Below, piece by piece: positions 3,512-64,000 of a DNA stretch of 64,000 bases. How positions within the stretch are numbered: position 1 is the stretch's first letter; each line of letters begins with the position of its first letter. This DNA comes from a virus. The stretch lies in IMG/VR virus record IMGVR_UViG_3300048999_000056, positions 1 through 64,000 of that record. One strand, written 5' to 3'. The notes under the pieces were generated by a model, which was not told the DNA's origin, made no database searches, and saw nothing but the letters and a program-made list of their open reading frames with translations. The translations under genes and the position numbers were made by a program.

Positions 3512-3530
3512 GGTATATAATAGATGGCAT
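3512..3530 (+). promoter_or_regulatory. Putative promoter/leader of GGY-NN array 1
   Basis: GGTATATAATAGATGGCAT (contains TATAAT) in a GC-rich genome; similar motifs precede arrays 2 and 3. Confidence 0.65.
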
Positions 3531-5449
3531 CGAATGGGTAGGCCAGGCATGTTGCGGTTTGGCTCGGCAGGCATCGCAACCACGCTCGGCATCGCAGGAT
3601 CGGCTTGGCGTGTGTTGGCTAGATAGGGCACGGTCCCGCAGGTAGGGCATGTGAGGGCTTGCGGCGGCAACGTTAGGCTTGGCGTTGCAGGCAGGTCGCG
3701 GTTCGACCAGACCCGGCTAGGCAGGGTTAGACGTGGCATCGCAGGATCGGCTCGGAACGTCACCGTTAGCTTTGGCTCGGGACGACTTGGCAGGCGAGTC
3801 TAGACAAGGCAAGTCAGGGCAAGGATCGACATCGCAGGCTCGGCTCGGTAGTTCTCGGCATGGTCCTGCCACGTAGGGTTGGGCATCGCAGGCAAGGCAT
3901 GGCGGGGTTCGACCACGCTCGGATCGGTTTGGCGTTGCAGGCTCGGTTCGGCAAGGCAGGCTCAGGCTCGACGTGTCATCGCAGGCGTGGCAATGATTGG
4001 CAAATCAGGGTTCGGCACGTCTAGGCCCGGCAGCGCAGGCATCGCAGGGACCGCATCGGTTTGTCAGGTCGTGGCACGGTGGGACGTGGCAGGCTAGACA
4101 TAGCAGGACGTGATAGGGCCGGGTTCGGTATCGCAGGTGAGGCTAGGCACGTCGTCGTGTGGACTGGACCGGCAACGTCCGGCAGGCACGGTTCGGCTTA
4201 GCAGGGCTTGTCAAAGGCAGGGTACGGGTTGGCTGGCGAGGCATGGCATCGTGCGGCCACGATAGTCCAGGCGGGTTGCGGCGGGCATGGCATGGCAAGA
4301 TACGGCGCCGCTCGACGCGGTATGTCGGCGCAGGCAGGTCTAGGCGCGGCTCGACGTGGCTTGGTCCGTTCCGGCCGGCTCCGCTCGGCACGGCATGGTA
4401 CGGAGCGTTCGGCAAGGCAGGGCGGGCTCGGCACGGTATGAGGCGGCTCGACGCCGGTGGGCAACGCAGGCACGGATCGTGAGGCAGCTCTAGGGATGGC
4501 TCGGCTCGACACCGCAGGCTTGGGTAGGCGAGTTGACGAAACGCTCGGCATGACGGGGCTCGGTAGGGCTGGCTTGGATTGGCGCGGATCGGCATGGCAC
4601 GTTGAGGTCCGGCAACGCAGGCTTGGTTGGGTTAGGCCCGACGTATCGCGGTTCGGCTCGACACGACAGGGCAGGCGTGGATTGGTAGGCGTGGATCGGC
4701 CTCGACTGGCATCGCATGGTATGGCAGGCGCGGCAAGAGTCGGCAGCGCTGGTCTAGTTCCGGCTGGTCATGGCGGGCACGGCAGGTTGAGACATGGTTC
4801 GGCCCGCCCACGTATCGCACGCTTTGGCATGGCGTCGCAGGCACGGTAAGCTGAGACATGGTCCGGCCCGGTTTGGCAGCGAAGGGTAGGGCATCGCAGG
4901 CTTGTCACGGCTGGGCAGGGGTCGTTGAGGCAATGTTAGGCATGGCGTCGCAGGCTCGGCTCGGTTAGGCATGTCCGCGTTTCGCGTGGCTCGGTTGCGC
5001 GGGCAGGGTTTGGTCGGTTTGTCCAGTCACGTCCCGGCTCGTTGGCGCTGGTCGTGGCCGGCATGGCAAGGTGAGCATAGGCTGGACACGGCAAGGGCGG
5101 CAACGCGGGCACGGCATGGCAATTCTCGGCTGGGCGACGTTTGGCAACGCGGGCGTGGATTGTCTCGGCAAGGCTGGTCGGGGATTGGTCAGGCAGGCCC
5201 CGCTTGGTCGGCTCGGCATGGCTAGTCAGCTCTCGTCAGGACGTGGCAGCCGTGGGAAGGCGAGGGCAGGCGTCCGGCGGTTCGGCAAGGCACCGCTGGC
5301 TGCGCTCGGTTTGGTCGGCTCGGGAAGGCTAGGTGGGGCTTCAGCAGGGCAGGCATGGCCCGACACGGCTCGACATGGTTAGGCGGGGCATGGTCCCGCT
5401 GGCATGCCATGGCACGGCGACGCCAGACGGGGCTAGACCAGGCAGGCAT
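3526..5449 (+). repeat. GGY-NN pentamer array 1 (putative guide-RNA array, roughly 35-40 units)
   Basis: 5-nt periodicity; unit ends such as GGCAT-CGCA start at 3588, 3632, 3681, 3735, 3784, 3828, 3882, 3931, 3975 and 4029 (spacings 44/49/54); no credible ORF. Confidence 0.9.
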
Positions 5450-5467
5450 ATATGATGGAGGTTGCGC

Positions 5468-5863
5468 ATGCTGCAACCTTTTTCAATGGATGGACAATAC
5501 CTTCAACTCGTGGCGCATCTGCGCGGTTGCGAACACGCGCTCTCCGATGATTTCAGGGGAGCGTGGGCGCCAGCCGCGCAACCGCGCCTCATGTGGGCAA
5601 TCGAGATCAACGTCGAAATGCCGCTCGATCCGTGCGACCTCGAAAAGCGGTTCGCGGCAATGGCGTTGAAGTACAAGATCGACATGCGGCAAGGCGACGC
5701 TCTGACGCCGCCGCTGCAACCACCTTATCCAGCATTGCGCCGGCACATACGCAAGGCGCGTAGCTTCTATGGTTTCATTGTCACCTATGTAGCGATGGTG
5801 CCGCATCCGGCAGCGTCGTGCACGAAACCGCCCTTCATTCCATTGGAGCCGATAGCGGCATGA
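5468..5863 (+). CDS. Hypothetical protein
   Basis: GGAGG upstream; overlaps the next ATG. Confidence 0.5.
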   Translation: MLQPFSMDGQYLQLVAHLRGCEHALSDDFRGAWAPAAQPRLMWAIEINVEMPLDPCDLEKRFAAMALKYKIDMRQGDALTPPLQPPYPALRRHIRKARSFYGFIVTYVAMVPHPAASCTKPPFIPLEPIAA

Positions 5864-27376: not shown

Positions 27377-27828
27377 CAGCGCTATCAGCTACTCAGTTCC
27401 GCGCGCTGTTTCCGGCGTTCCGTGATCCGGCCGCGTTTGTCGATGGCGAGGTTGAGGCGTGGCTCGACATTGCCGACAAGGCGCTCGACCCGATGATCTG
27501 GGCGAACTATCGCGATCTCGCCATGGCGTTGTTCACGGCCCACAATATCGTGTTGAGCCGACGCGACGAAAAGGCAGCCGACAGCGGCGGTGTGCCCGGC
27601 TCGCCGGTTAGCGGCGTTGTGGCGTCGAAGAGTGTTGGCGCCGTCTCCATCAGCTACGACACGCAAGCCGGACTGGAGCAGAATGCCGGCGCATGGAACC
27701 TGACCAACTACGGCACGCGCTTCTATCGACTGATGCGCCTTGCCGGTATGGGCGGAACGCAACTTGGTGGTCCTGATGTTCAACTTGGTCCAACGTTCGG
27801 ACCGGCATGGCCCGGCGTGCTCGAATGA
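27373..27828 (+). CDS. Head-tail adaptor (DUF4054 family)
   Basis: FR..FPAF.D, LFTAH, SKSVG.VS.SYD, WN.T.YG..F. Confidence 0.85.
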   Translation: MTALSATQFRALFPAFRDPAAFVDGEVEAWLDIADKALDPMIWANYRDLAMALFTAHNIVLSRRDEKAADSGGVPGSPVSGVVASKSVGAVSISYDTQAGLEQNAGAWNLTNYGTRFYRLMRLAGMGGTQLGGPDVQLGPTFGPAWPGVLE

Positions 27829-28323
27829 GCCGCGCCGAACCACGTCACGACTTGCGGTGCGTTGCCGTGTCACGCCTGCCCAGCCTTGCCAGGAGCGGCC
27901 CCGACCGGCGCTGCCGACCCTGGACACGCCTGCGTTGCCGTTCCACGTCTAGCCCTGCGTGGCCCAACCAAGCCTGCGATACCGTGCATCGTCTCGCCTG
28001 ATCTGGACTCGCCTAGCCGATACATGCCTGCGATGCCAGCCCATGCGTAGCGTTGACCTGTCTAATCAGGCGCTACCGAGCCAAGCCTGCTGAGACAAGC
28101 CTTGCCGCGAAAAGCCACCACATCCCTTGCCCCGCCAGCCCTGCCCCATCGAGCCACGACCAGCGTCAACGAGCCTAGCCTGCCAAGCCGAACCCGGCGA
28201 TGACCTGAGTCGCCCTGCCATGCCGAGCCTGCGATGCCCTGCCTCGTCGTGCCCTGCGATGTTAAACCCGAGCCTGCCAGGACAGCCCTCGTCTAGCCTT
28301 GCCGAGCCGAATCATACCATGCC
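27829..28323 (-). repeat. GGY-NN pentamer array 2 (about 10 units)
   Basis: On +, CCTGC linkers at 27929, 27973, 28027 and 28086 (spacings 44/54/59); fills the intergenic gap. Confidence 0.88.
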
Positions 28324-28337
28324 ACTTCATATATACC
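28319..28337 (-). promoter_or_regulatory. Putative promoter/leader of array 2
   Basis: Minus strand reads GGTATATATGAAGTGGCAT; 15/19 identical to the array 1 leader. Confidence 0.65.
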
Positions 28338-29889: not shown

Positions 29890-30112
29890 CCTGCGATGCC
29901 ATGCCGAGCCGCATCGGTCCTAGTCACGTCTTGCCCTGCCATGCCGAGCCTGCGCTGCCGCGCCAGGACTGGCGTCAACGAGCGATGCCGAGCGTTGCCG
30001 GCCACACCGCGACTTAGCCGTGCCAAGCCCAGACTTGCCTTGCCAAGCCCGCCGCACCTTGACGTGTGCTGCCCGTCCTAGACCGGCCAAGCGCGCCGAG
30101 CCGGGTCTTGCC
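29889..30112 (-). repeat. GGY-NN pentamer array 3 (about 4-5 units)
   Basis: On +, CCTGCGATGCC at 29890 and CCTGCGCTGCC at 29949 (spacing 59); pentamer periodicity. Confidence 0.85.
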
Positions 30113-30126
30113 ACTTGTTATATACG
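30108..30126 (-). promoter_or_regulatory. Putative promoter/leader of array 3
   Basis: Minus strand reads CGTATATAACAAGTGGCAA; same consensus as the other two leaders. Confidence 0.65.
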
Positions 30127-53696: not shown

Positions 53697-56600
53697 ATGG
53701 CGTGGTCCTTCGTCGGTGCCGGCGCTTTAGCGTCCGTCACCACCACAGCGATATCGGTAGCAGAGCCCGCTGGTGTACAAGCCGGCGATCTTCTTGTTGC
53801 GCTCATATCGCATCGTGCCGCGTCGGGTGCCGCTTCGGTGGTGCTGCCGACTGGTTGGACTCTCGTTACTGAGCAGAAGGTCGGCAACACCACCGCCGCC
53901 AGCACGTTAGGCATCGGCAACGGCGTCATGGCCTACCGGGTCGCGACCGGAGCCGGTGGGCCGTGGAGCTTCACGGTTCCGACCGCGAACGTTGCGCTCG
54001 GTCGCATTCTTGTCTACCGCGGTCAGGACAAGCTCGCGTCGCCACTGTGTATGACACGCAGCACGACGACGGCAACCGCCACGACGAGCATCAGCGTTAC
54101 TGGCCTAACAACGCCGAACGCCAACTGTCTGATCATTCACGGTCTATGCGGCGCACAGAATGGCGCGATGTCGGCATTCGACGCCGCGACCGATCCAACG
54201 ACTGCTAGCGGCACGGGCGGTCAAACAGGCGCTCCAACTGCCGGGACATGGCTGGAGCGAACCGATGACGCTACCGCGAATGGTTCCGATTGTAGTCTGG
54301 CAATTGCAGACGCGGTTCGGGCCACGTCGGGCGCCACAGGCAATTTCACCGCGACGGCGGCGCTGGGTTGTGGCTACGCCTCGCTCGTCGGCGTGTTCAA
54401 ACTCGACGTTGCAATCCCAGCCGGCCAACGGCTGGTCACGCATTACATCATCGGAACGGGAACCGGCAGCTTCACGCCGCCGTCCACCGTCAACGCGATC
54501 GTCGAAGTATGGGGCGCGGGCGCCACTGGAAACACCGCGAGCGGCGTGGGCGGTAACGGTGCTGGTTGGTCACGGGATAGTAGCTACGCGCTAACAGCGG
54601 CAACGCCGGTCAACTTTTCGCTCGGTGCTCCCGGCGCGACCTCTGCGGCGGCCGGTGGCGATACTTGGTGGGCAACATCCGGCACGCTGATAGCGAACGG
54701 CGGCGGGTCCGCTACCGCGCGGATCGGCGACGTGACGTTTGTCGGTGGCGTGGCGAGCACCAACTCTGCCACCGGTAACACCGGGGGCGGTGGCGCAGCC
54801 GGTCCGTATGGACCTGGGCGAGCCTCTGGCAGTGCTGGCAGTGGTGGCGGAACGGGTGGCGGTGGTAACGGCGGCGGCACCGACTCAACAGCTTCCGCAA
54901 CGGCAGCTGGCACCGCTGGCGGCAATGGTTTCGCTGGAACGGGCGGCGCTGCTGGCGTTGCAAATGGTAATGGTTCGCCGGGCGGTCCGGGCGCGGGCGG
55001 TGGCGGTGGCGGTAACACGACAGGTCAAGGCGCTCGCGGTGGTGATGATTGGAGCAACGGCGGCGGCGGTGCGGGTGGCACAGGCAGCCTCGCCAATCAT
55101 CCTACAACGGCGGTCGGCGGCACGCCGGGTGCTGGCGGTGCGGCGGCAAATGCGGCACTTGGGCGCGGCGGTTACAGCCTCGTCAAACTCAGCTATGTTG
55201 GGACCGACGATGACAGCCTGACAGTTGTCGGCTCGCTGTCGAACATCGTCTTCGCGCGACCGGGTGCAGCTCATATTGCCGGCACCGGCTCGATATCGGC
55301 CAATGCAACAGTCGTCAGTGGCGGTCCGACTACTTGGCAAGGGACTGCAACATTTGCTGGCGTAGCGTCGGTTAGTGCTGTCACTGCCTACGTCAAACCG
55401 CAACAATGGGACATCGGCAACTACTATCATCCCAACGTCACGCTGTCGGGCACGGGCGGAAACTTTACCGCGCTGCAGACGGGGAGCAGCGGCAACCGTG
55501 CATCGGTGGTTGCGACTGAGTTTTTCAATACCGGCAAATACTACTGGGAACTGCAGATCGATTCCACTGGCGGCGGTCAGTATGTCGGACTGGCGCGTGC
55601 AGCGTTCGATCCCAACGGCTTCGATTCCGCCTTGTATGCGACTGAGGTTACGTGGTGGACCTTTACCGCTGACTCATCCGGTCATATAGTTGCTGCTAAC
55701 GTCGAGATCAGCGCCGGGGCACCGTTCTACACGACTGGCGATCGTGTCCAGTTTGCCTGGGATGCTACCAATCATCTGATATGGCTTAGAGTCAACAATG
55801 GCTCTTGGGCGAACGGCGGTGATCCGGCAGCCGGGACCAACGGTTACGATATCTCGTCCGTGACGGGACCTCTCGCTCCGGCGATCTCGCTGGGCGGCAC
55901 GAATGATCAGATATCAACCAAGTTCGATCGTGCCTCGTGGTCCGGCACGGCGCCAGCCGGTTTCGCTCAATTCGACCCTGTCATTCTACAGGGAACTGCA
56001 ACGCTAGCCGGCACGGGCTCGCGGACCTTTAACGCCACGCACACACCGGCAGGCACAGCAACAATTGGCGGTGCCGGTTTGCTTAGCGTCTCTGCGCGGA
56101 TCATTGACCGGATCGACCCTGTCACGCTGGCAGGTATCGGCTCAATTACTGCAAACGCTACGCATACGCCGGCAGGCACAGCCGTTTTCGCCGGTCTAGG
56201 TTCGTTAACTGTTGACGCAACTGTTGTTCTCGGCACTGTCACGTGGCAGGGCTCGGCAACGTTTGCAGGCGTCGGCACGCTCAGTGTCAATGCGACGCAC
56301 ACGCCAGCCGGACAGGCGACGATCAACGGCGCCGGTTCGCTTGCTGTCACTGCGACGCTGATCGATGCTATAGACGCTCTTACGCTGCCAGGTGCCGGCT
56401 CTCTCAGCGTCAACGCCACGCATACGCCGGCTGCGGCTGCGACGTTTGCCGGTATCGGCTCGGTCACGCTCAATGCGACTTTGACTGCTCCGGTCACGGC
56501 GAATATCAACGGCACCGGATCGGTCACTGCCAATGCTACGCACACGCCGGCTGCGACGGCATCGCTCAACGGTGTCGGATCGATAGCAGCAACCGCGACG

Positions 56601-58043
56601 GTCATCGCTCGTGCCTCAACAACCTTGGCCGGAACAGGCGGGATATCGGCGACGGCGACGGCGATAGAGCAAGCCTCGTCAACGATCGGCGGCACAGGCA
56701 CCGTCACGATCTTCGTCGTCGAAGGCGAGCTAGGTATGGCGTCGCTCGCGGGTGTCGGCTCGCTTACGATAGACGCCACGCACACCCCGATCGGCACGGC
56801 GACCTTCAACGGCATAGGCACGCTGGCGACGGCTTCCGCGGTGCTGGCAGGCGGTTCGGCGATGCTGGGCGGCATCGGTGCGGTTTCGGTCGCGGGGGCT
56901 GCCCAGGCCGCTGCCAGCGCTGCCCTGAGTGGCATTGGCACGCTAACCGTCAGCGGCATTTCGGCGTCTCAGGGAACGGCGGCGTTTGGCGGTGCCGGCT
57001 CGATCTCGGCGAGCGCCACGCATACGCCGGCCGGACAGGCGACGATAGGCGGCACGGGATCGGTGACGCTCAGCGCCCGCGTGGCGGCGATCAGCTCCGC
57101 GACGCTGGCCGGTGTTGGTTCCGTCACAGTCACAGCGACGGCGATCGAGCAGGCTGCCGCGACAATCAACGGCGTAGGCTCGGTTGCGGCTGACGGGCTG
57201 ATCCGTGGTCGGATCGACGCAGCGGCAACGCTAGGCGGCACGGGTGCTGTCACGGCAACCGCGACGATTATCGAGCGCGCTACCTCTGCGATCAGCGGTA
57301 GCGGCTTGCTCGCGGTCAACGCAACGCATACCGGTCAAGCTGCCGCGGCGATCGGCGGAACGGGTGCCCTGGTAGTCAACGCGGTCCATACGCCGCAAGG
57401 CGCTGCGGCACTGCACGGCATTGGTTCGATTACTGTTGCGGCAACGCATACGCCGAATGGCAGCGCCTCGATCTCAGGCGCCGGTGTGTTGACAGTGAGC
57501 GCCAGTCTGCGCCTGCCGGCGATTGCGTCAATCGGCGGCGTCGCTTCGTTTACAGCGATGGCGGATCATACTGCACAAGGCGCTGCGACGTTCGACGGCA
57601 TCGGCACTCTGACGGTTGACGAAAGTCTCGCGCTGGCGACGGGCGCCGATCTTGCGGGCGCAGGCGATGTCACTGTCGAGGCATCGCTGATCGTTCAAGC
57701 TGCCGTCGATCTGGTCGGAACCGGCGCTCTGTCGGTTGACGGTAGCGTATTCAGTCCTGAGCCGGGCTCGGTCACACTTTCCGGTATCGGGTCTGTCACG
57801 ATCAACACGCGGCTTGTTGCGGCGATACACGCGACGATCGGCGGTCAAGGCATCCTGGCTGCCGACGCGGTTGTTGTGACGAGTATCCTGCCGCCGCCGG
57901 AGCGGGAAATCCACGTTGTCGGGCAGTCTCGTGTCGTGACAGACAGCCGCGATCGATCGCTTACGGTTGCGCCTAGTCAACGTGCTGCGTCGGGCGAATA
58001 CAGCCGACTGATCTCCGATCGGCGCGGCGGAAGGAGGATATGA
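53697..58043 (+). CDS. Large appendage/fibre protein: Gly-rich domain, SPRY-like domain and about 20-aa Ala/Gly/Thr repeats
   Basis: GDLLVA, VEVWGAG plus a Gly-rich tract, GKYYWE, tandem A...G.G.(L/V)..NATHTP repeats. Confidence 0.75.
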   Translation: MAWSFVGAGALASVTTTAISVAEPAGVQAGDLLVALISHRAASGAASVVLPTGWTLVTEQKVGNTTAASTLGIGNGVMAYRVATGAGGPWSFTVPTANVALGRILVYRGQDKLASPLCMTRSTTTATATTSISVTGLTTPNANCLIIHGLCGAQNGAMSAFDAATDPTTASGTGGQTGAPTAGTWLERTDDATANGSDCSLAIADAVRATSGATGNFTATAALGCGYASLVGVFKLDVAIPAGQRLVTHYIIGTGTGSFTPPSTVNAIVEVWGAGATGNTASGVGGNGAGWSRDSSYALTAATPVNFSLGAPGATSAAAGGDTWWATSGTLIANGGGSATARIGDVTFVGGVASTNSATGNTGGGGAAGPYGPGRASGSAGSGGGTGGGGNGGGTDSTASATAAGTAGGNGFAGTGGAAGVANGNGSPGGPGAGGGGGGNTTGQGARGGDDWSNGGGGAGGTGSLANHPTTAVGGTPGAGGAAANAALGRGGYSLVKLSYVGTDDDSLTVVGSLSNIVFARPGAAHIAGTGSISANATVVSGGPTTWQGTATFAGVASVSAVTAYVKPQQWDIGNYYHPNVTLSGTGGNFTALQTGSSGNRASVVATEFFNTGKYYWELQIDSTGGGQYVGLARAAFDPNGFDSALYATEVTWWTFTADSSGHIVAANVEISAGAPFYTTGDRVQFAWDATNHLIWLRVNNGSWANGGDPAAGTNGYDISSVTGPLAPAISLGGTNDQISTKFDRASWSGTAPAGFAQFDPVILQGTATLAGTGSRTFNATHTPAGTATIGGAGLLSVSARIIDRIDPVTLAGIGSITANATHTPAGTAVFAGLGSLTVDATVVLGTVTWQGSATFAGVGTLSVNATHTPAGQATINGAGSLAVTATLIDAIDALTLPGAGSLSVNATHTPAAAATFAGIGSVTLNATLTAPVTANINGTGSVTANATHTPAATASLNGVGSIAATATVIARASTTLAGTGGISATATAIEQASSTIGGTGTVTIFVVEGELGMASLAGVGSLTIDATHTPIGTATFNGIGTLATASAVLAGGSAMLGGIGAVSVAGAAQAAASAALSGIGTLTVSGISASQGTAAFGGAGSISASATHTPAGQATIGGTGSVTLSARVAAISSATLAGVGSVTVTATAIEQAAATINGVGSVAADGLIRGRIDAAATLGGTGAVTATATIIERATSAISGSGLLAVNATHTGQAAAAIGGTGALVVNAVHTPQGAAALHGIGSITVAATHTPNGSASISGAGVLTVSASLRLPAIASIGGVASFTAMADHTAQGAATFDGIGTLTVDESLALATGADLAGAGDVTVEASLIVQAAVDLVGTGALSVDGSVFSPEPGSVTLSGIGSVTINTRLVAAIHATIGGQGILAADAVVVTSILPPPEREIHVVGQSRVVTDSRDRSLTVAPSQRAASGEYSRLISDRRGGRRI

Positions 58044-61256: not shown

Positions 61257-62261
61257 GCCTGCGCTGACGGGTCGCACCCTGCCGCGCCTAACCGTGTCGG
61301 GCGATGCCTGCCAAGCCCTGACAATCCACGTCTTGCGTTGCCGTGCCGTGCCGGGCCTGCCGGGTCAAGCCGGGACCTTCCGAGCGTTGCGATGCCGCGT
61401 CTGCCCCGCCATGACATGCCTTGCCGTTGCGAGCGTAGCCTTGCCTGCGCTGTCTTGCCGTGACGGACCTAGCCGCGCTCTGCCCTGTCGAGCCTGCCAT
61501 GCCATGCCCTGACGATCTATGCCATCCCGAGCCGAGCCTAGCCAGCCACGTCAAGCCGTGCCTTGACACGTCTTTCCAAGCCTAGCCGAGCCGAGTCTGC
61601 GTTGACCTGCCAATCGATACCTCGCCGTGCCAAGCCGCGTCTGCCCTGCCTCGGCCTGCCGAACGATACCATGCCCTGCAGACCCATGCCTGCGATGCCG
61701 GAACGTGCCCTGCGCTCTCGTGCCACGTCACCACGTACCCTGCCTGCGCCGCCTCAACGCGTCCTACCGAGCCAAGCCGAGACAAGCCTGCGATGCGGCG
61801 CCTAGCCTCGCCTCGACGGATGTCGCCTCGCCTAGCCTGCGTTGCCACAACCAGCCCCCCGAGATCAGGCGAACCCAGCGTGTCCAAGCCTGCCACGCGC
61901 CGCCCGGACTGCCCTTGCCTATCGGTGTCGCCCCGAGCCGGCCGCGCCCTGCCTCGCCCAGTCTCGTCCTGCCAGGACGTGCCTTGCCTGCCCCGTCGTG
62001 ACGTGCCCAGCGCGGCGTAGCCGAGCCTGCCATGCCATGACCGGTCTAGTCCCGCCTAACCATAGCGGGCCGCGCCTGCCCCGCCATCCGGGCGTCGCCT
62101 TGCCGAGCCTTGTCGAACCATGCCTGCGACGCCTTGCCACGGCGTTACGCGTCTAGCCGCACCTTGCCGAGCCTGCGACGCGATGCCTTGCCAAGCCACG
62201 TCGCAACCCGCCAAGCCTGCGTTGCCATCCCTCGAATTGCCCAGCCAACGCTAACCCTGCC
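61257..62261 (-). repeat. GGY-NN pentamer array 4 (about 20 units), downstream of the RAMP-like operon
   Basis: Minus-strand unit 62173-62125 reads GGCTC GGCAA GGTGC GGCTA GACGC GTAAC GCCGT GGCAA GGCGT CGCA; linkers at 62123, 62172 and 62216 (spacings 49, 44). Confidence 0.9.
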
Positions 62262-62276
62262 CTGTACACAAGGCGA

Positions 62277-62292
62277 GGCGGCCGAAGCCGCC
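62277..62292 (-). other. C(UUCG)G tetraloop hairpin at the 5' side of array 4
   Basis: Minus strand reads GGCGGC-TTCG-GCCGCC; no U-tract follows. Confidence 0.7.
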
Positions 62293-62317
62293 CCGTTAGT
62301 GTTAGATATTATGACTG

Positions 62318-62839
62318 CTACTGTCTGCGGCGCTTTCGCCCTGCCTTGCGGTCGGGGCCTTTGCGTGCTGGCGACTTCACCGTGCCACCTTCCAGCTGAT
62401 CCTGCCGGCGCCGCTCCAGTTCGGCAATCCGCTGGCCTTCATCGAACAGGCGCGACATTTCGGTCAACCGCTGATACTTGATATGGAAGCGGTTGAAGTC
62501 ATCTAGCGCGTCCTTCAACATGACGCGCCGCAAGTCACGATCGGGCAGAATGCGATCAAGCGGACGATAACCGCCGCCCGCGTGACGATCGATACTCAAC
62601 GAGATCATGGTGCGCTGCCCGGTATCGTCAACAACATGAATGGCAATCAGGCGGCGTATCTGGTCGAGCCGATAGCGGTATCCTGCCTTGGCGTCTTCCC
62701 ATTCGAGTTCTTCATGCAGTGCCGAGCTGGGATGCGTAGCAGCCCAGTCGTGCACCACCTTGACGTAGAGATTGCCATCGGGATCGAGCCGGCGCAGCGC
62801 CTCCAGTTCCTGCTGGATGCGCGCCGTGGATTCAAGCAT
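62318..62839 (-). CDS. Conserved phage protein, candidate accessory factor of the RAMP/array system
   Basis: AGGAGG RBS; S.LH..LEW.D..A...YRL.Q.R.LI and L..AL.....F..KY..L motifs. Confidence 0.75.
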   Translation of the reverse strand: MLESTARIQQELEALRRLDPDGNLYVKVVHDWAATHPSSALHEELEWEDAKAGYRYRLDQIRRLIAIHVVDDTGQRTMISLSIDRHAGGGYRPLDRILPDRDLRRVMLKDALDDFNRFHIKYQRLTEMSRLFDEGQRIAELERRRQDQLEGGTVKSPARKGPDRKAGRKRRRQ

Positions 62840-63080
62840 TGTTCGGCCTCCTGGTTGAACGCGCGGCCCAGCCGATAGCGTTCGCCAGATCGCCTTTTTC
62901 CATTGCCAGCTCATACTTGTTGAGTGCGAGCATGTGTTGCGTGAACTTGCGCTCGCGCCGTGCCCATGTGCCAATACGCCGCTTCCTCCGAGGCGGCGTT
63001 TCCTGCAATGCTTTCTCCTTCAGCGCCTCTTGTGCGAGGCGCTGCCCTTCACGGGTTATGTTTTTCAACCGGCTAAGCAT
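62832..63080 (-). CDS. Small basic hypothetical protein
   Basis: 8-nt overlaps with both flanking genes. Confidence 0.55.
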   Translation of the reverse strand: MLSRLKNITREGQRLAQEALKEKALQETPPRRKRRIGTWARRERKFTQHMLALNKYELAMEKGDLANAIGWAARSTRRPNNA

Positions 63081-63948
63081 TGCTGTTGACTACGTCCCAC
63101 AAGCCCCAGTCCAGACCGTTGGAGTTCGGCGAGGAGGGCCGCCCCTCGCCGACGCCGACCTGCATACCGGCAATCGCCATCAGGTTGACCACGTCGGTTG
63201 CCGAGAACTGCCGCGCGTCCCAGCGGACGGTCACGGCGGCGTTCCACTTTTCCCACATAGGCCGGTGGCGGATATCGGCAACGCCTGATGCGTTGCGGGC
63301 TGGCGCCTCGTGCAGCCGTGGCGTGCCGTTGATCTTGACGAGCGGCTGCCCATCCTGATCGAGTCCGTCCGGCACGATGAACAACGACAGCTTGGCGCGT
63401 GTCATCGTGAAGCCGGCAAGGCGGCACGCGTCAATCATCGCGTTGCGGAAAGCCGGCGCCGGAATGCCGTGCCATCCGTCACGCGCGATATGCTGCGCCA
63501 GACGGTAGATTTCTTCGAAGTCCTTCGGCTCGCGACGGCGGCGTGACTTTTCGCCCTGCGAACCCGCCTTCTGCCGCTCCACCATCATGTTGACGGCTTT
63601 CTGGCTGAATTTGTGTTGCACGTAAGGCGTAGAGCCTCTGATGTAGACGATGCCGCGATCGAACTGCGGCGGTTGAATGACGACGCGCGTCACCTTGCCG
63701 CTCAACACGCCAACCGTGCCTTGCTCCATGGTGCTGTCGAGCGTTTCGATCGGGATCGGCGAGGCGGGTATCCTGCCGAAATTGTCGGTGTTGCGCATTG
63801 ACGGCCCGGCTACTGCACCCTTGCCGTTCTTGCCCTTGCCGTTCCGACCGATCGTCGCCTCACGTTCCGCCAGCAGGTCCGCAACCGGATTGCCGCCAGC
63901 GTGCGCCGCCTCGAATGCGGCTTTCTGCTGTCTCTCGTCGCGTGACAT
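63073..63948 (-). CDS. Stand-alone RAMP/Cas7-like RNA-binding protein
   Basis: I.G.TP first strand, GIPAPAFRNAMIDAC (compare RAMP IP.S..KG..R), thumb-like segment ending R.RP.W..W, Gly-rich loop AG..VGVGEGRP......WG.W. Confidence 0.7.
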   Translation of the reverse strand: MSRDERQQKAAFEAAHAGGNPVADLLAEREATIGRNGKGKNGKGAVAGPSMRNTDNFGRIPASPIPIETLDSTMEQGTVGVLSGKVTRVVIQPPQFDRGIVYIRGSTPYVQHKFSQKAVNMMVERQKAGSQGEKSRRRREPKDFEEIYRLAQHIARDGWHGIPAPAFRNAMIDACRLAGFTMTRAKLSLFIVPDGLDQDGQPLVKINGTPRLHEAPARNASGVADIRHRPMWEKWNAAVTVRWDARQFSATDVVNLMAIAGMQVGVGEGRPSSPNSNGLDWGLWDVVNSNA

Positions 63949-64000
63949 AGGTCCGCGCTTGCCGGGCTCGCGTGCCCAAACGGCCGGCTCAACGTCTTCG

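What the first reader, a model, noticed from the sequence alone, without database searches (positions are those of the whole stretch)
61257..63948. Candidate RNA-guided system: stand-alone RAMP/Cas7-like gene, two coupled genes and a co-directional GGY-NN array
Seen: a minus-strand operon (63948-63073, 63080-62832, 62839-62318, each overlapping by 8 nt) is followed within about 60 nt by a UUCG hairpin and about 1 kb of GGY-NN pentamers cut into 44-59-nt units by an NGCA linker. Known: the 291-aa protein has the motif order of RAMP/Cas7 backbones (beta1-G-x-TP, IP-helix, thumb, C-terminal Gly loop), and such proteins polymerise on guide RNA with a fixed nucleotide step. No cas1, cas2, cas3, cas5, cas6 or repeat-spacer CRISPR array is visible in the window. 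Inference: each unit is a guide; one subunit grips each constant GGY and the variable NN dinucleotides jointly encode a gapped target, probably for nuclease-free silencing of competing phages or host genes. This matches my unverified recollection of recently reported VIPR-type phage systems, so the class may already be described even if this locus is not.
Basis: partly seen in the sequence, partly recalled or inferred. Interest (0 to 1): 0.97.

Follow-up and report, generated by a model that had tools for sequence, protein, structure and literature searches.

The report
Phage VIPR system with five guide arrays
This is a real but already described kind of phage weapon (a VIPR system: a lone Cas7-like protein plus guide RNAs made of five-letter repeats). 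This roughly 113-kb phage carries about 90 guide units in five arrays, and one guide spells the catalytic motif of a bacterial anti-phage phospholipase gene.

Summary
On the minus strand lie three overlapping genes, a UUCG hairpin, and 1 kb of GGY-NN pentamers cut into units of 5n+4 nt by an SGCA|GGC junction.

The interpretation also holds, but the class is already published: VIPR systems, in three 2026 bioRxiv preprints. The evidence that this locus belongs to it:
- A profile of its family hits only the SUSP1 Vipr protein in the PDB (E 6e-5).
- 126 of 133 homologue loci carry a co-directional pentamer array.
- 101 of 133 carry a homologue of the 173-aa gene just downstream, so that gene is the vap accessory. 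The 82-aa ORF is unique to this phage.

Features of this locus:
- The virus record is complete at 112.8 kb and holds five arrays, four of them in the window. Together they span about 4.3 kb and 93 units. Four arrays and vipr sit behind the same GTATATA box.
- The -1 junction grammar, which the paper calls "staggered arrays", is shared across the clade.
- One guide, in the array outside the window, is shared with an unrelated phage. It exactly reads the GTSTGG codons of CapV-like patatin genes, two of them in CBASS operons.

No target was found for the array in the finding itself. This scan has noted VIPR-like loci in at least 260 other genomes. Verdict: a new member of a known kind.

The parts
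63073..64000 (-). vipr gene. It encodes a lone Cas7-like RAMP and runs past the window edge. The likely start is at 64083 (336 aa), behind a GTATATA box at 64143-64137.
62832..63080 (-). 82-aa basic ORF inserted between vipr and vap. It is unique to this phage and it is uncertain whether it is a real gene.
   Evidence: No tblastn match in any of 133 homologue loci. No Pfam or PHROG family. Both of its junctions read CAATGCTT(AG/GA).
62318..62839 (-). vap, the conserved Vipr accessory protein. It has a weakly winged-helix-like N-terminal domain, a helical hairpin and a basic tail.
62275..62294 (-). UUCG-loop hairpin between vap and array A1.
   Evidence: Sequence. Fold -30.1 kcal/mol for the 76-nt stretch, z -3.4. 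No U-run follows, so it is not a canonical terminator.
61257..62262 (-). Array A1: 22 units plus a tail of GGY-NN pentamers, staggered by a -1 junction SGCA|GGC. It has no promoter box of its own and is probably read through from the vipr operon.
3512..5484 (+). Array A2 with its GGTATATA box (3512-3519), about 45 units (3526-5449) and a terminator-like hairpin with a T-run (5459-5484). It lies between the terminase large subunit and portal genes.
   Evidence: Gene identities.
27826..28337 (-). Array A3 (about 9 units) with a GGTATATA box at 28337-28330. It runs antisense in an intergenic gap of the plus-strand structural operon.
   Evidence: Neighbouring structural genes.
29890..30125 (-). 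Array A4 (about 4 units) with a GTATATA box at 30125-30119. It runs antisense just upstream of the tail sheath gene.

Best explanation
The locus is a VIPR (Viral Interference Programmable Repeat) system of a complete 112.8-kb tailed phage. It belongs to the clade whose guide arrays are 'staggered'.

Shown here:
- The protein is a Vipr-type RAMP.
- The 173-aa gene is its conserved accessory, vap.
- Five arrays of GGY-NN pentamers sit in the genome. Four of them, and vipr itself, lie behind the same GTATATA box.

Inferred from the published mechanism:
- Each array is transcribed.
- One Vipr protomer binds each pentamer and hides GGY.
- The free NN pairs read double-stranded DNA, skipping one base after each pair.
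- The bound filament blocks transcription of genes in rival phages, prophages or the host.

My own inference: the 4-nt junction unit breaks the 5-nt register. That ends one filament and starts the next, and so sets guide lengths of 44, 49 or 54 nt.

At least one guide of this phage is aimed at CapV-like patatin phospholipase genes.
For: Fold and sequence:
- The only PDB sequence hit of the family profile is SUSP1 Vipr, E 6.3e-5.
- The published GGY-contact residues H17, R138, D177 and R179 of SUSP1 align to H112, R229, E268 and R270. The last three are invariant in 25 homologues.

Grammar.

Co-occurrence:
- 126 of 133 homologue loci carry a G-rich array of period 5, nearly always on the vipr strand and within about 1.5 kb.
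- 1156 of 1291 register slips in those arrays are -1, mostly at GGCA|GGC. This fits the paper's legend on staggered arrays with a 1-nt overlap.
- vap is linked in 101 of 133 loci.

Setting:
- Terminase, portal, neck and sheath genes.
- CheckV completeness 100%.
- A 126-nt overlap of the contig ends.
- No Cas1.

Skip rule in this clade: 600 guides were scanned against 3.6 Mb of unbiased loci.
- The 1-nt skip gave 14 hits with at most 1 mismatch.
- Skip 0 gave 4 and skip 2 gave 2.
- Five shuffles gave 1 to 7.
- The real hits include in-phase ones on other phages' vipr and vap genes.

Promoter box in front of four arrays and vipr.
Against: - Transcription, processing at the junction and binding by Vipr are therefore unshown.
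- Kinship to the tested SUSP1 protein is remote. It covers only the C-terminal 47 residues, and W178 of SUSP1 is a glycine here.
- Only 55% of the 743 pentamers are strict GGY.
- No target was found for any guide of array A1.
- The sigma-70 scan finds no -35/-10 pair at the arrays.
- The VIPR type (I-VII) could not be assigned, because the paper's supplement is not held.
Confidence: 0.9

Rival explanations
1. The four arrays away from vipr (A2-A5) are not offensive guides. They would be decoys or regulators: solo vrRNAs that soak up or redirect Vipr proteins of rival phages, or that tune this phage's own late genes.
For: - Solo vrRNAs that redirect a rival's VIPR are described in the third preprint.
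- A3 and A4 lie antisense inside the structural operon.
- Other VIPR phages do aim at this phage. An L051 guide matches 18/18 at contig 112555-112580, and an L021 guide matches 16/18 on this vap.
Against: - The phage has its own vipr behind the same promoter box as the arrays.
- The grammar of all five arrays is the same.
- No self-target stands out over shuffles.
- The one decoded guide lies in an orphan array and points outward, at patatin genes.
Confidence: 0.07
2. The periodic tracts are not RNA guides at all. They would be simple-sequence DNA, a coding repeat, or a structural DNA element that merely travels with the gene.
For: - High-GC open frames run through the arrays.
- Such a tract is annotated as a protein gene in Mycobacterium phage Donkeykong.
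Against: - Three fixed and two free positions per pentamer, with NN near zero information, is not what slippage or coding gives.
- The strand always follows vipr.
- A promoter box stands at the 5' end of four arrays.
- A shared unit kept 18/18 NN while 9/27 scaffold bases changed.
- The same RNA class is shown experimentally in the literature.
Confidence: 0.01
3. The system destroys its targets, by nuclease action or RNA targeting, rather than silencing DNA without cutting.
For: The closest solved folds are RNA-cleaving Csm3/Cmr4 subunits. Some VIPR types carry nuclease or helicase vap genes.
Against: - vap here has no nuclease or helicase match. It looks weakly like a winged-helix DNA binder.
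- No further conserved gene follows it.
- Published Vipr proteins of the DNA-binding types repress without cutting.
Confidence: 0.03

Closest known systems
VIPR systems with staggered vrRNA arrays (bioRxiv 10.64898/2026.04.26.720920, legend of fig. S18)
   Same: - A lone Vipr RAMP plus one vap gene in a phage.
- Arrays of GGY-NN pentamers with no tail between guides.
- The end of one guide overlaps the start of the next by one base. Here that is SGCA|G, with the G shared.
   Different: - Five arrays spread over the genome instead of one locus, about 93 units in all.
- An extra 82-aa ORF between vipr and vap.
- An N-terminal arm of about 90-135 aa on Vipr.
- The paper's figures and tables are not held, so it is unknown whether this clade is the one drawn there or which type number it has.
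Type II VIPR of Escherichia phage SUSP1 (PDB 36pp; the experimentally tested reference)
   Same: - RAMP fold, G-loop and thumb arginine.
- GGY/NN code.
- A predicted DNA-binding vap.
- Phage-borne, with guides that hit other phages' vipr and vap genes.
   Different: - Sequence kinship is only detectable by profile (E 6e-5, 47 residues).
- SUSP1 vrRNAs are about 100 nt with a conserved 3' tail and pseudoknot, and there are four per phage. Here there is no tail, the units are 44-59 nt, and there are dozens per array.
- W178 of SUSP1 is a glycine here.
Solo or orphan vrRNAs (bioRxiv 10.64898/2026.10.15.759431)
   Same: Guide loci lie away from any vipr gene and have their own promoters.
   Different: There they sit in satellites or in phages that lost vipr, and act on another element's Vipr. 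Here they share a genome and a promoter box with an intact vipr.
CRISPR-Cas class 1 backbone subunits (Csm3, Cmr4, Cas7)
   Same: The same fold, and the same idea of one subunit per fixed step of guide RNA, with a thumb that interrupts pairing.
   Different: - No repeat-spacer array, Cas1 or other cas genes.
- The step is 5 nt with 2 read, not 6 nt with 5 read.
- The guides are genome-encoded, not acquired.

Membership tests
[not shown]
   - Beta-hairpin at 210-232 and loop GVGEGRPSSPNSNG at 265-278 in the model and alignment.
VIPR system | Sequence kinship to a Vipr shown to work | tested here: met
   The profile of 25 homologues hits only 'SUSP1 Vipr protein' 36pp_D in 177,635 PDB sequences, E 6.3e-5. 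A single-sequence search gives only E 1.1.
VIPR system | Residues that hold GGY (SUSP1 H17, R138, D177, W178, R179) | tested here: inconclusive
   These align to H112, R229, E268, G269 and R270. Four are kept or conservatively changed, but the stacking tryptophan is not. The H17 column comes from a weak alignment stretch.
VIPR system | vrRNA genes: tandem YNNGG/GGYNN units (at least 4) with fixed GGY and hypervariable NN | tested here: met
   There are 743 pentamers in five arrays. GGY columns carry 0.4-2.0 bits and NN columns 0.0-0.4 bits. Strict GGY holds in 55% of units, and the paper itself notes internal degeneracy.
VIPR system | Homologues of the protein travel with such arrays | tested here: met
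   126 of 133 loci, from 80 IMG/VR contigs, 51 GTDB genomes and 2 named phages.
VIPR system | A vipr-accessory gene (vap) in the operon | tested here: met
   A homologue of the 173-aa gene follows vipr in 101 of 133 loci. It could not be matched to the published vap1-6 because their sequences are not held.
VIPR system | Viral setting without cas genes or a CRISPR array | tested here: met
   - Phage structural genes.
- The record is a virus, 100% complete.
- No Cas1.
- No repeat-spacer array by TRF.
- Other cas families were not searched one by one.
VIPR system | Guides read targets with one skipped base per NN, often the wobble base of codons | tested here: met
   - Clade level: 14 hits against 1 to 7 in controls.
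- In-phase hits on vipr and vap of other phages.
- One guide of this phage gives 7 of 8 exact hits in phase on one patatin motif.
- For array A1 of the finding itself, no target was found.
VIPR system | vrRNAs are expressed, processed and bound by Vipr, and the complex represses transcription | not testable with these tools
No wet data exist for this phage.
VIPR system | Assignment to one of the seven published types | not testable with these tools
   Types rest on the paper's tree and data S4, and no supplementary file is held.
CRISPR-Cas | A repeat-spacer array and adaptation genes (cas1, cas2) | tested here: not met
   No Cas1 in the 112.8-kb record, while the same search rings in 7 control genomes. 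The arrays have no constant repeat longer than 3 nt apart from the 7-nt junction.

The most novel reading that the evidence does not exclude
This phage's VIPR may serve partly as an RNA-guided anti-defence weapon.

A guide in orphan array A5 (contig 87555-87507, outside the window) is shared with an otherwise unrelated 105-kb phage. Read with the 1-nt skip, it spells the catalytic GTSTGG(I/M)(I/M)A(I/M) codons of CapV-like patatin phospholipase genes, whatever their wobble bases.

In capV-then-cyclase operons, a filament parked near the 5' end of capV would shut off the whole CBASS system carried by a rival prophage or by the host.

The preprints' main texts name satellites, prophage regulators and other VIPR systems as targets, but not patatin or CBASS genes. 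Earlier notes of this scan raised the same idea on other genomes, and one such claim was later marked down.
Probability: 0.35. Interest if true: 0.7.

Novelty: new member of a known kind. Interest (0 to 1): 0.42.

Why it matters
On its own this locus adds one more VIPR system to a class that three 2026 preprints already define, so the discovery value of the class is spent.

Three things remain useful:
- It gives a clean, complete phage genome for the little-described 'staggered' array form, with a clade-wide junction rule (SGCA|GGC, units of 5n+4 nt). That rule makes a testable prediction about how guide length is set.
- It shows how far a phage can go. About 4% of the genome is guide arrays, each behind the same promoter box as vipr, and some are wedged antisense into the structural operon.
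- If the patatin/CBASS reading holds, VIPR is used not only against rival mobile elements but also against abortive-infection immunity. Guides written in codon positions 1-2 would then cover a whole protein family at its least mutable motif.

Tried and rejected
Family and motif searches:
- Pfam gave nothing for the three proteins or for 39 vap homologues.
- Rfam at gathering threshold found nothing in the window, so no hammerhead-type array.
- TRF does not see the arrays.
- The sigma-70 and terminator scans found nothing at the arrays.
- A PDB profile search for vap gave only noise.
- The Atlas shows only unnamed viral clusters for vap.

Self-targeting: 73 guides against the phage's own contig and 133 loci gave no excess over shuffles under the 1-nt skip. 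No in-phase hit of this phage's guides fell on vipr or vap of relatives.

Exact 1-nt-skip scans for other guides:
- A2:3837 gave one hit in a 35% GC contig, out of codon phase and with no convergence. Judged chance.
- A1:61837, A2:3984 and A1:61744 gave no hit.
- A1:62173 gave two hits where the skip falls on codon position 1. There was no convergence over the whole 59.8-kb provirus. Judged chance.
- A2:4840 gave no hit in metagenomes.
- A1:61597 gave one sequence seen in two metagenome contigs of 46% GC. It is in phase, but a single event near the chance expectation. Left open.
- The L142 hit of the patatin guide lies in another gene and is probably chance.

Host: the best named terminase relatives are at most about 53% identical, so no host was assigned.

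Full report
WHAT IS THERE

On the minus strand of the window's right end lie three ORFs: 63948-63073, 63080-62832 and 62839-62318. Each overlaps the next by 8 nt. Next comes a UUCG-loop hairpin at 62294-62275. The 76-nt stretch around it folds at -30.1 kcal/mol, z -3.4, and no shuffle folds as well.

From 62262 to 61257 runs a tract whose identity at lag 5 is 0.467, against about 0.24 at neighbouring lags. A register-tracking parse reads it as GGY-NN pentamers in 22 units plus a tail. Most units are 44, 49 or 54 nt, and each closes with a 4-nt SGCA before the next GGC.

Aligned on 72 junctions of the phage, the three scaffold columns carry 0.4-2.0 bits, the two NN columns 0.0-0.4 bits, and the junction S-G-C-A|G-G-C 0.75-2.0 bits.

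One correction is needed. The first ORF stays open to the window edge. The gene call in the protein collection is 336 aa, which puts the start at 64083.

THE CLASS IS ALREADY PUBLISHED

A literature search found three 2026 preprints on VIPR systems. They describe:
- a lone RAMP protein (Vipr), usually one accessory gene (vap), and vrRNAs made of alternating GGY and NN;
- one protomer per repeat;
- targets in double-stranded DNA read with exactly one skipped base per NN, often the wobble base;
- transcriptional silencing of rival phages, satellites and other VIPR systems;
- seven types, and several array forms, including 'staggered arrays' in which neighbouring vrRNAs overlap by 1 nt.

MEMBERSHIP TESTS

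Protein:
- Pfam gives nothing.
- An AlphaFold2 model built on 25 homologues is confident over residues 92-290.
- Foldseek against the PDB returns only Csm3, Cmr4 and type VII Cas7 chains at the top, E about 1e-4.
- A profile of the family hits a single PDB sequence, 'SUSP1 Vipr protein' (36pp), E 6.3e-5, over the thumb base and G-loop.
- The published GGY-contact residues R138, D177 and R179 align with R229, E268 and R270, which are invariant in the family. H17 aligns with H112. W178 is a glycine here.

Relatives:
- The family is large, with 1491 clusters at E of 0.001 or better. Most members are 205-240 aa, so the first 90-135 residues here are an extra arm.
- Of 133 loci with a homologue, 126 hold a G-rich segment of period 5. 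It is almost always on the vipr strand and within about 1.5 kb. The loci come from 80 IMG/VR contigs, 51 GTDB genomes, cyanophage Cy-LDV1 and Mycobacterium phage Donkeykong.
- In those arrays 1156 of 1291 register slips are -1, chiefly GGCA|GGC, with units of 44-59 nt. The 5n+4 grammar is therefore a clade trait and fits the published 'staggered' form.

Accessory genes:
- The 173-aa gene has a homologue directly after vipr in 101 of 133 loci, so it is the vap. Its model (pLDDT 92) shows an N-terminal domain that only weakly resembles winged-helix DNA binders, a helical hairpin and a basic tail.
- The 82-aa ORF has no counterpart anywhere.

THE WHOLE PHAGE

- The window is the first 64 kb of a single 112,818-bp virus record with CheckV completeness 100%. 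Its last 126 nt repeat near its start.
- It encodes terminase, portal, neck, head and tail sheath proteins. It has one vipr and no Cas1.
- It holds five arrays, not one:
  - A1, the array of the finding;
  - A2 at 3526-5449, plus strand, between the terminase and portal genes;
  - A3 at 28322-27826 and A4 at 30112-29890, both antisense in gaps of the structural operon;
  - A5 at contig 87900-87260.
- Together they make 93 slip-bounded units, 62 of them with 8-13 full pentamers. That is about 4.3 kb, or 4% of the genome.
- A2-A5 each start a few bases after a (G)GTATATA box, and the same box stands at 64143, just upstream of vipr. It occurs 14 times in the record, often with GTT(C/G)AACA 10-14 nt upstream.
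- A1 has no box and probably rides on the vipr operon transcript.
- That these boxes are promoters is inference. The sigma-70 scan does not call them.

TARGETS

I applied the published rule, turning each guide into the pattern NNxNNx..., with shuffled-order and other-skip controls.

This phage's guides do not match its own genome or 133 relatives' loci more than shuffles do.

At clade level the rule is supported:
- 600 unique guides against 3.6 Mb of loci that were not fetched by any pattern gave 14 hits with at most one mismatch under the 1-nt skip.
- Skip 0 gave 4, skip 2 gave 2, and five shuffles gave 1 to 7.
- Among the real hits are in-phase matches of one phage's guide on another's vipr (L024 on L027, 19/20) and vap (L021 on L029, 17/18).
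- The L021 guide also matches this phage's vap at 62628-62653 with 16/18.
- A guide of the 138-kb phage behind L051 matches this record exactly (18/18) at 112555-112580, in phase with a 79-aa ORF of no known family. This phage therefore looks like a target as well as an attacker.

THE DECODED GUIDE

Unit A5:87555 has NN pairs AT GC AT AT CC CC GT GA GT. It shares all 18 NN bases with a unit in the array of the 104.6-kb phage behind L041. Yet 9 of 27 scaffold bases differ (Fisher p 0.007), the neighbouring units are unrelated, and the genomes share little beyond vipr.

Its 1-nt-skip pattern gave these results:
- Four exact hits in IMG/VR. Three lie antisense and in phase on the same peptide, FDLI(A/S/T)GTSTGGIIAIGL, the GxSxG catalytic motif of patatin-like phospholipases. 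Their wobble bases differ.
- The same pattern read backwards gave none.
- The L041 version is two NN longer. Those four extra bases, which were not part of the search, also match: 22/22 on one gene and 21/22 on the two others.
- In 401 alphaproteobacterial genomes, about 0.03 hits were expected, a figure I worked out from the genome sizes. The pattern hit four times and the built-in backwards control never did. All four hits lie on the same motif in phase.

All seven genes match PADLOC's CBASS 'Effector, Phospholipase' models, E 1e-57 to 1e-98. Two are followed at once by a CD-NTase cyclase. One of these is on a 75-kb viral contig with a WYL regulator upstream, the other on a 62% GC bacterial chromosome. 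The rest are longer patatins or have no cyclase beside them.

HOW FAR THIS GOES

- The complementarity is solid.
- That the guide evolved to silence CBASS is inference.
- The motif is common to many patatins.
- Only one guide is decoded, and no other guide converges on those loci.
- The copy in this phage has only 4 of 9 strict GGY scaffolds.
- An effector protein already present in the cell would not be removed by silencing.
- Earlier notes of this scan made similar claims on other genomes, and one was later priced at 30 in 100 for its bold reading.
- I put 0.35 on the anti-defence reading.

For array A1 itself no target was found. The few exact hits of its guides are at the chance rate, out of phase, or in DNA of very different GC.

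VERDICT

The kind is known, and this is a new member. It is notable for the number and spread of its arrays and for one guide with a clear, testable target.

No RNA evidence could be obtained. The VIPR type could not be assigned without the paper's supplement.

Noticed in passing
window 3512-5484 (+): A 1.9-kb array of about 45 GGY-NN units sits between the terminase large subunit and portal genes. It has its own GGTATATA box and a hairpin plus T-run at its end.
   Followed up: yes
window 27826-28337 (-) and 29890-30125 (-): Two short arrays lie antisense in intergenic gaps of the plus-strand structural operon, among the neck, head and tail sheath genes. Each has a GTATATA box. What antisense transcription does to the late genes is unknown.
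   Followed up: partly
contig 87260-87913 (-), outside the window (L151): A fifth array of about 15 units. Its unit at 87555 shares all 18 NN bases with a unit of an unrelated 105-kb phage (L041:11509), and it reads the GTSTGG catalytic codons of CapV-like patatin genes.
   Followed up: yes
whole contig; for example 3513 (+), 28336 (-), 30125 (-), 64143 (-), 87912 (-): GTATATA occurs 14 times in a 60% GC genome, often with GTT(C/G)AACA 10-14 nt upstream. It stands before vipr, four arrays and about eight other genes. It is probably a phage promoter class.
   Followed up: partly
L002 2447-2833 (Mycobacterium phage Donkeykong, NC_051648): The annotated protein gene gp48 is in fact a clean GGC-NN array with GGCA|GGC junctions. 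It lies just upstream of the Vipr homologue gp49 and the vap-like gp50. About 27 mycobacteriophages and 5 Gordonia phages carry the homologue.
   Followed up: partly
L001 4601-4840 and 5361-5620 (Cyanophage Cy-LDV1, BK059895): The closest named phage homologue (g34, 53% identity) is flanked by two pentamer arrays in stretches annotated as intergenic. They lie next to the cI-like repressor, excisionase and integration module.
   Followed up: no
contig 112555-112580 (+), outside the window (L150): A guide from the 138-kb phage behind L051 matches this record exactly (18/18) under the 1-nt skip. It is in phase with a 79-aa ORF of no known family, so this phage seems to be a target of another VIPR.
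   Followed up: partly
window 62628-62653: A guide of the phage behind L021 hits the vap of L029 at 17/18, and it also matches this phage's vap at 16/18, on the conserved RLIAIHVVD codons.
   Followed up: partly
window 4776-4898 (+): Two neighbouring units of A2 share their first six pentamers almost letter for letter and then diverge. This looks like duplication and diversification of a guide.
   Followed up: no
all five arrays: The NN positions are 39% GC in a 60% GC genome. That is lower than I would expect even for codon positions 1 and 2 of high-GC targets. Unexplained.
   Followed up: no
window 53697-58043 (+): A 1448-aa ORF in the tail region is built largely of tens of repeats of a short motif ending in NATHTPAG. 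It is presumably a repetitive tail fibre.
   Followed up: no
contig ends (1-154 and 112693-112818): The last 126 nt of the record repeat near its start. The genome is therefore circularly assembled or terminally redundant, although the record is classed as linear.
   Followed up: partly
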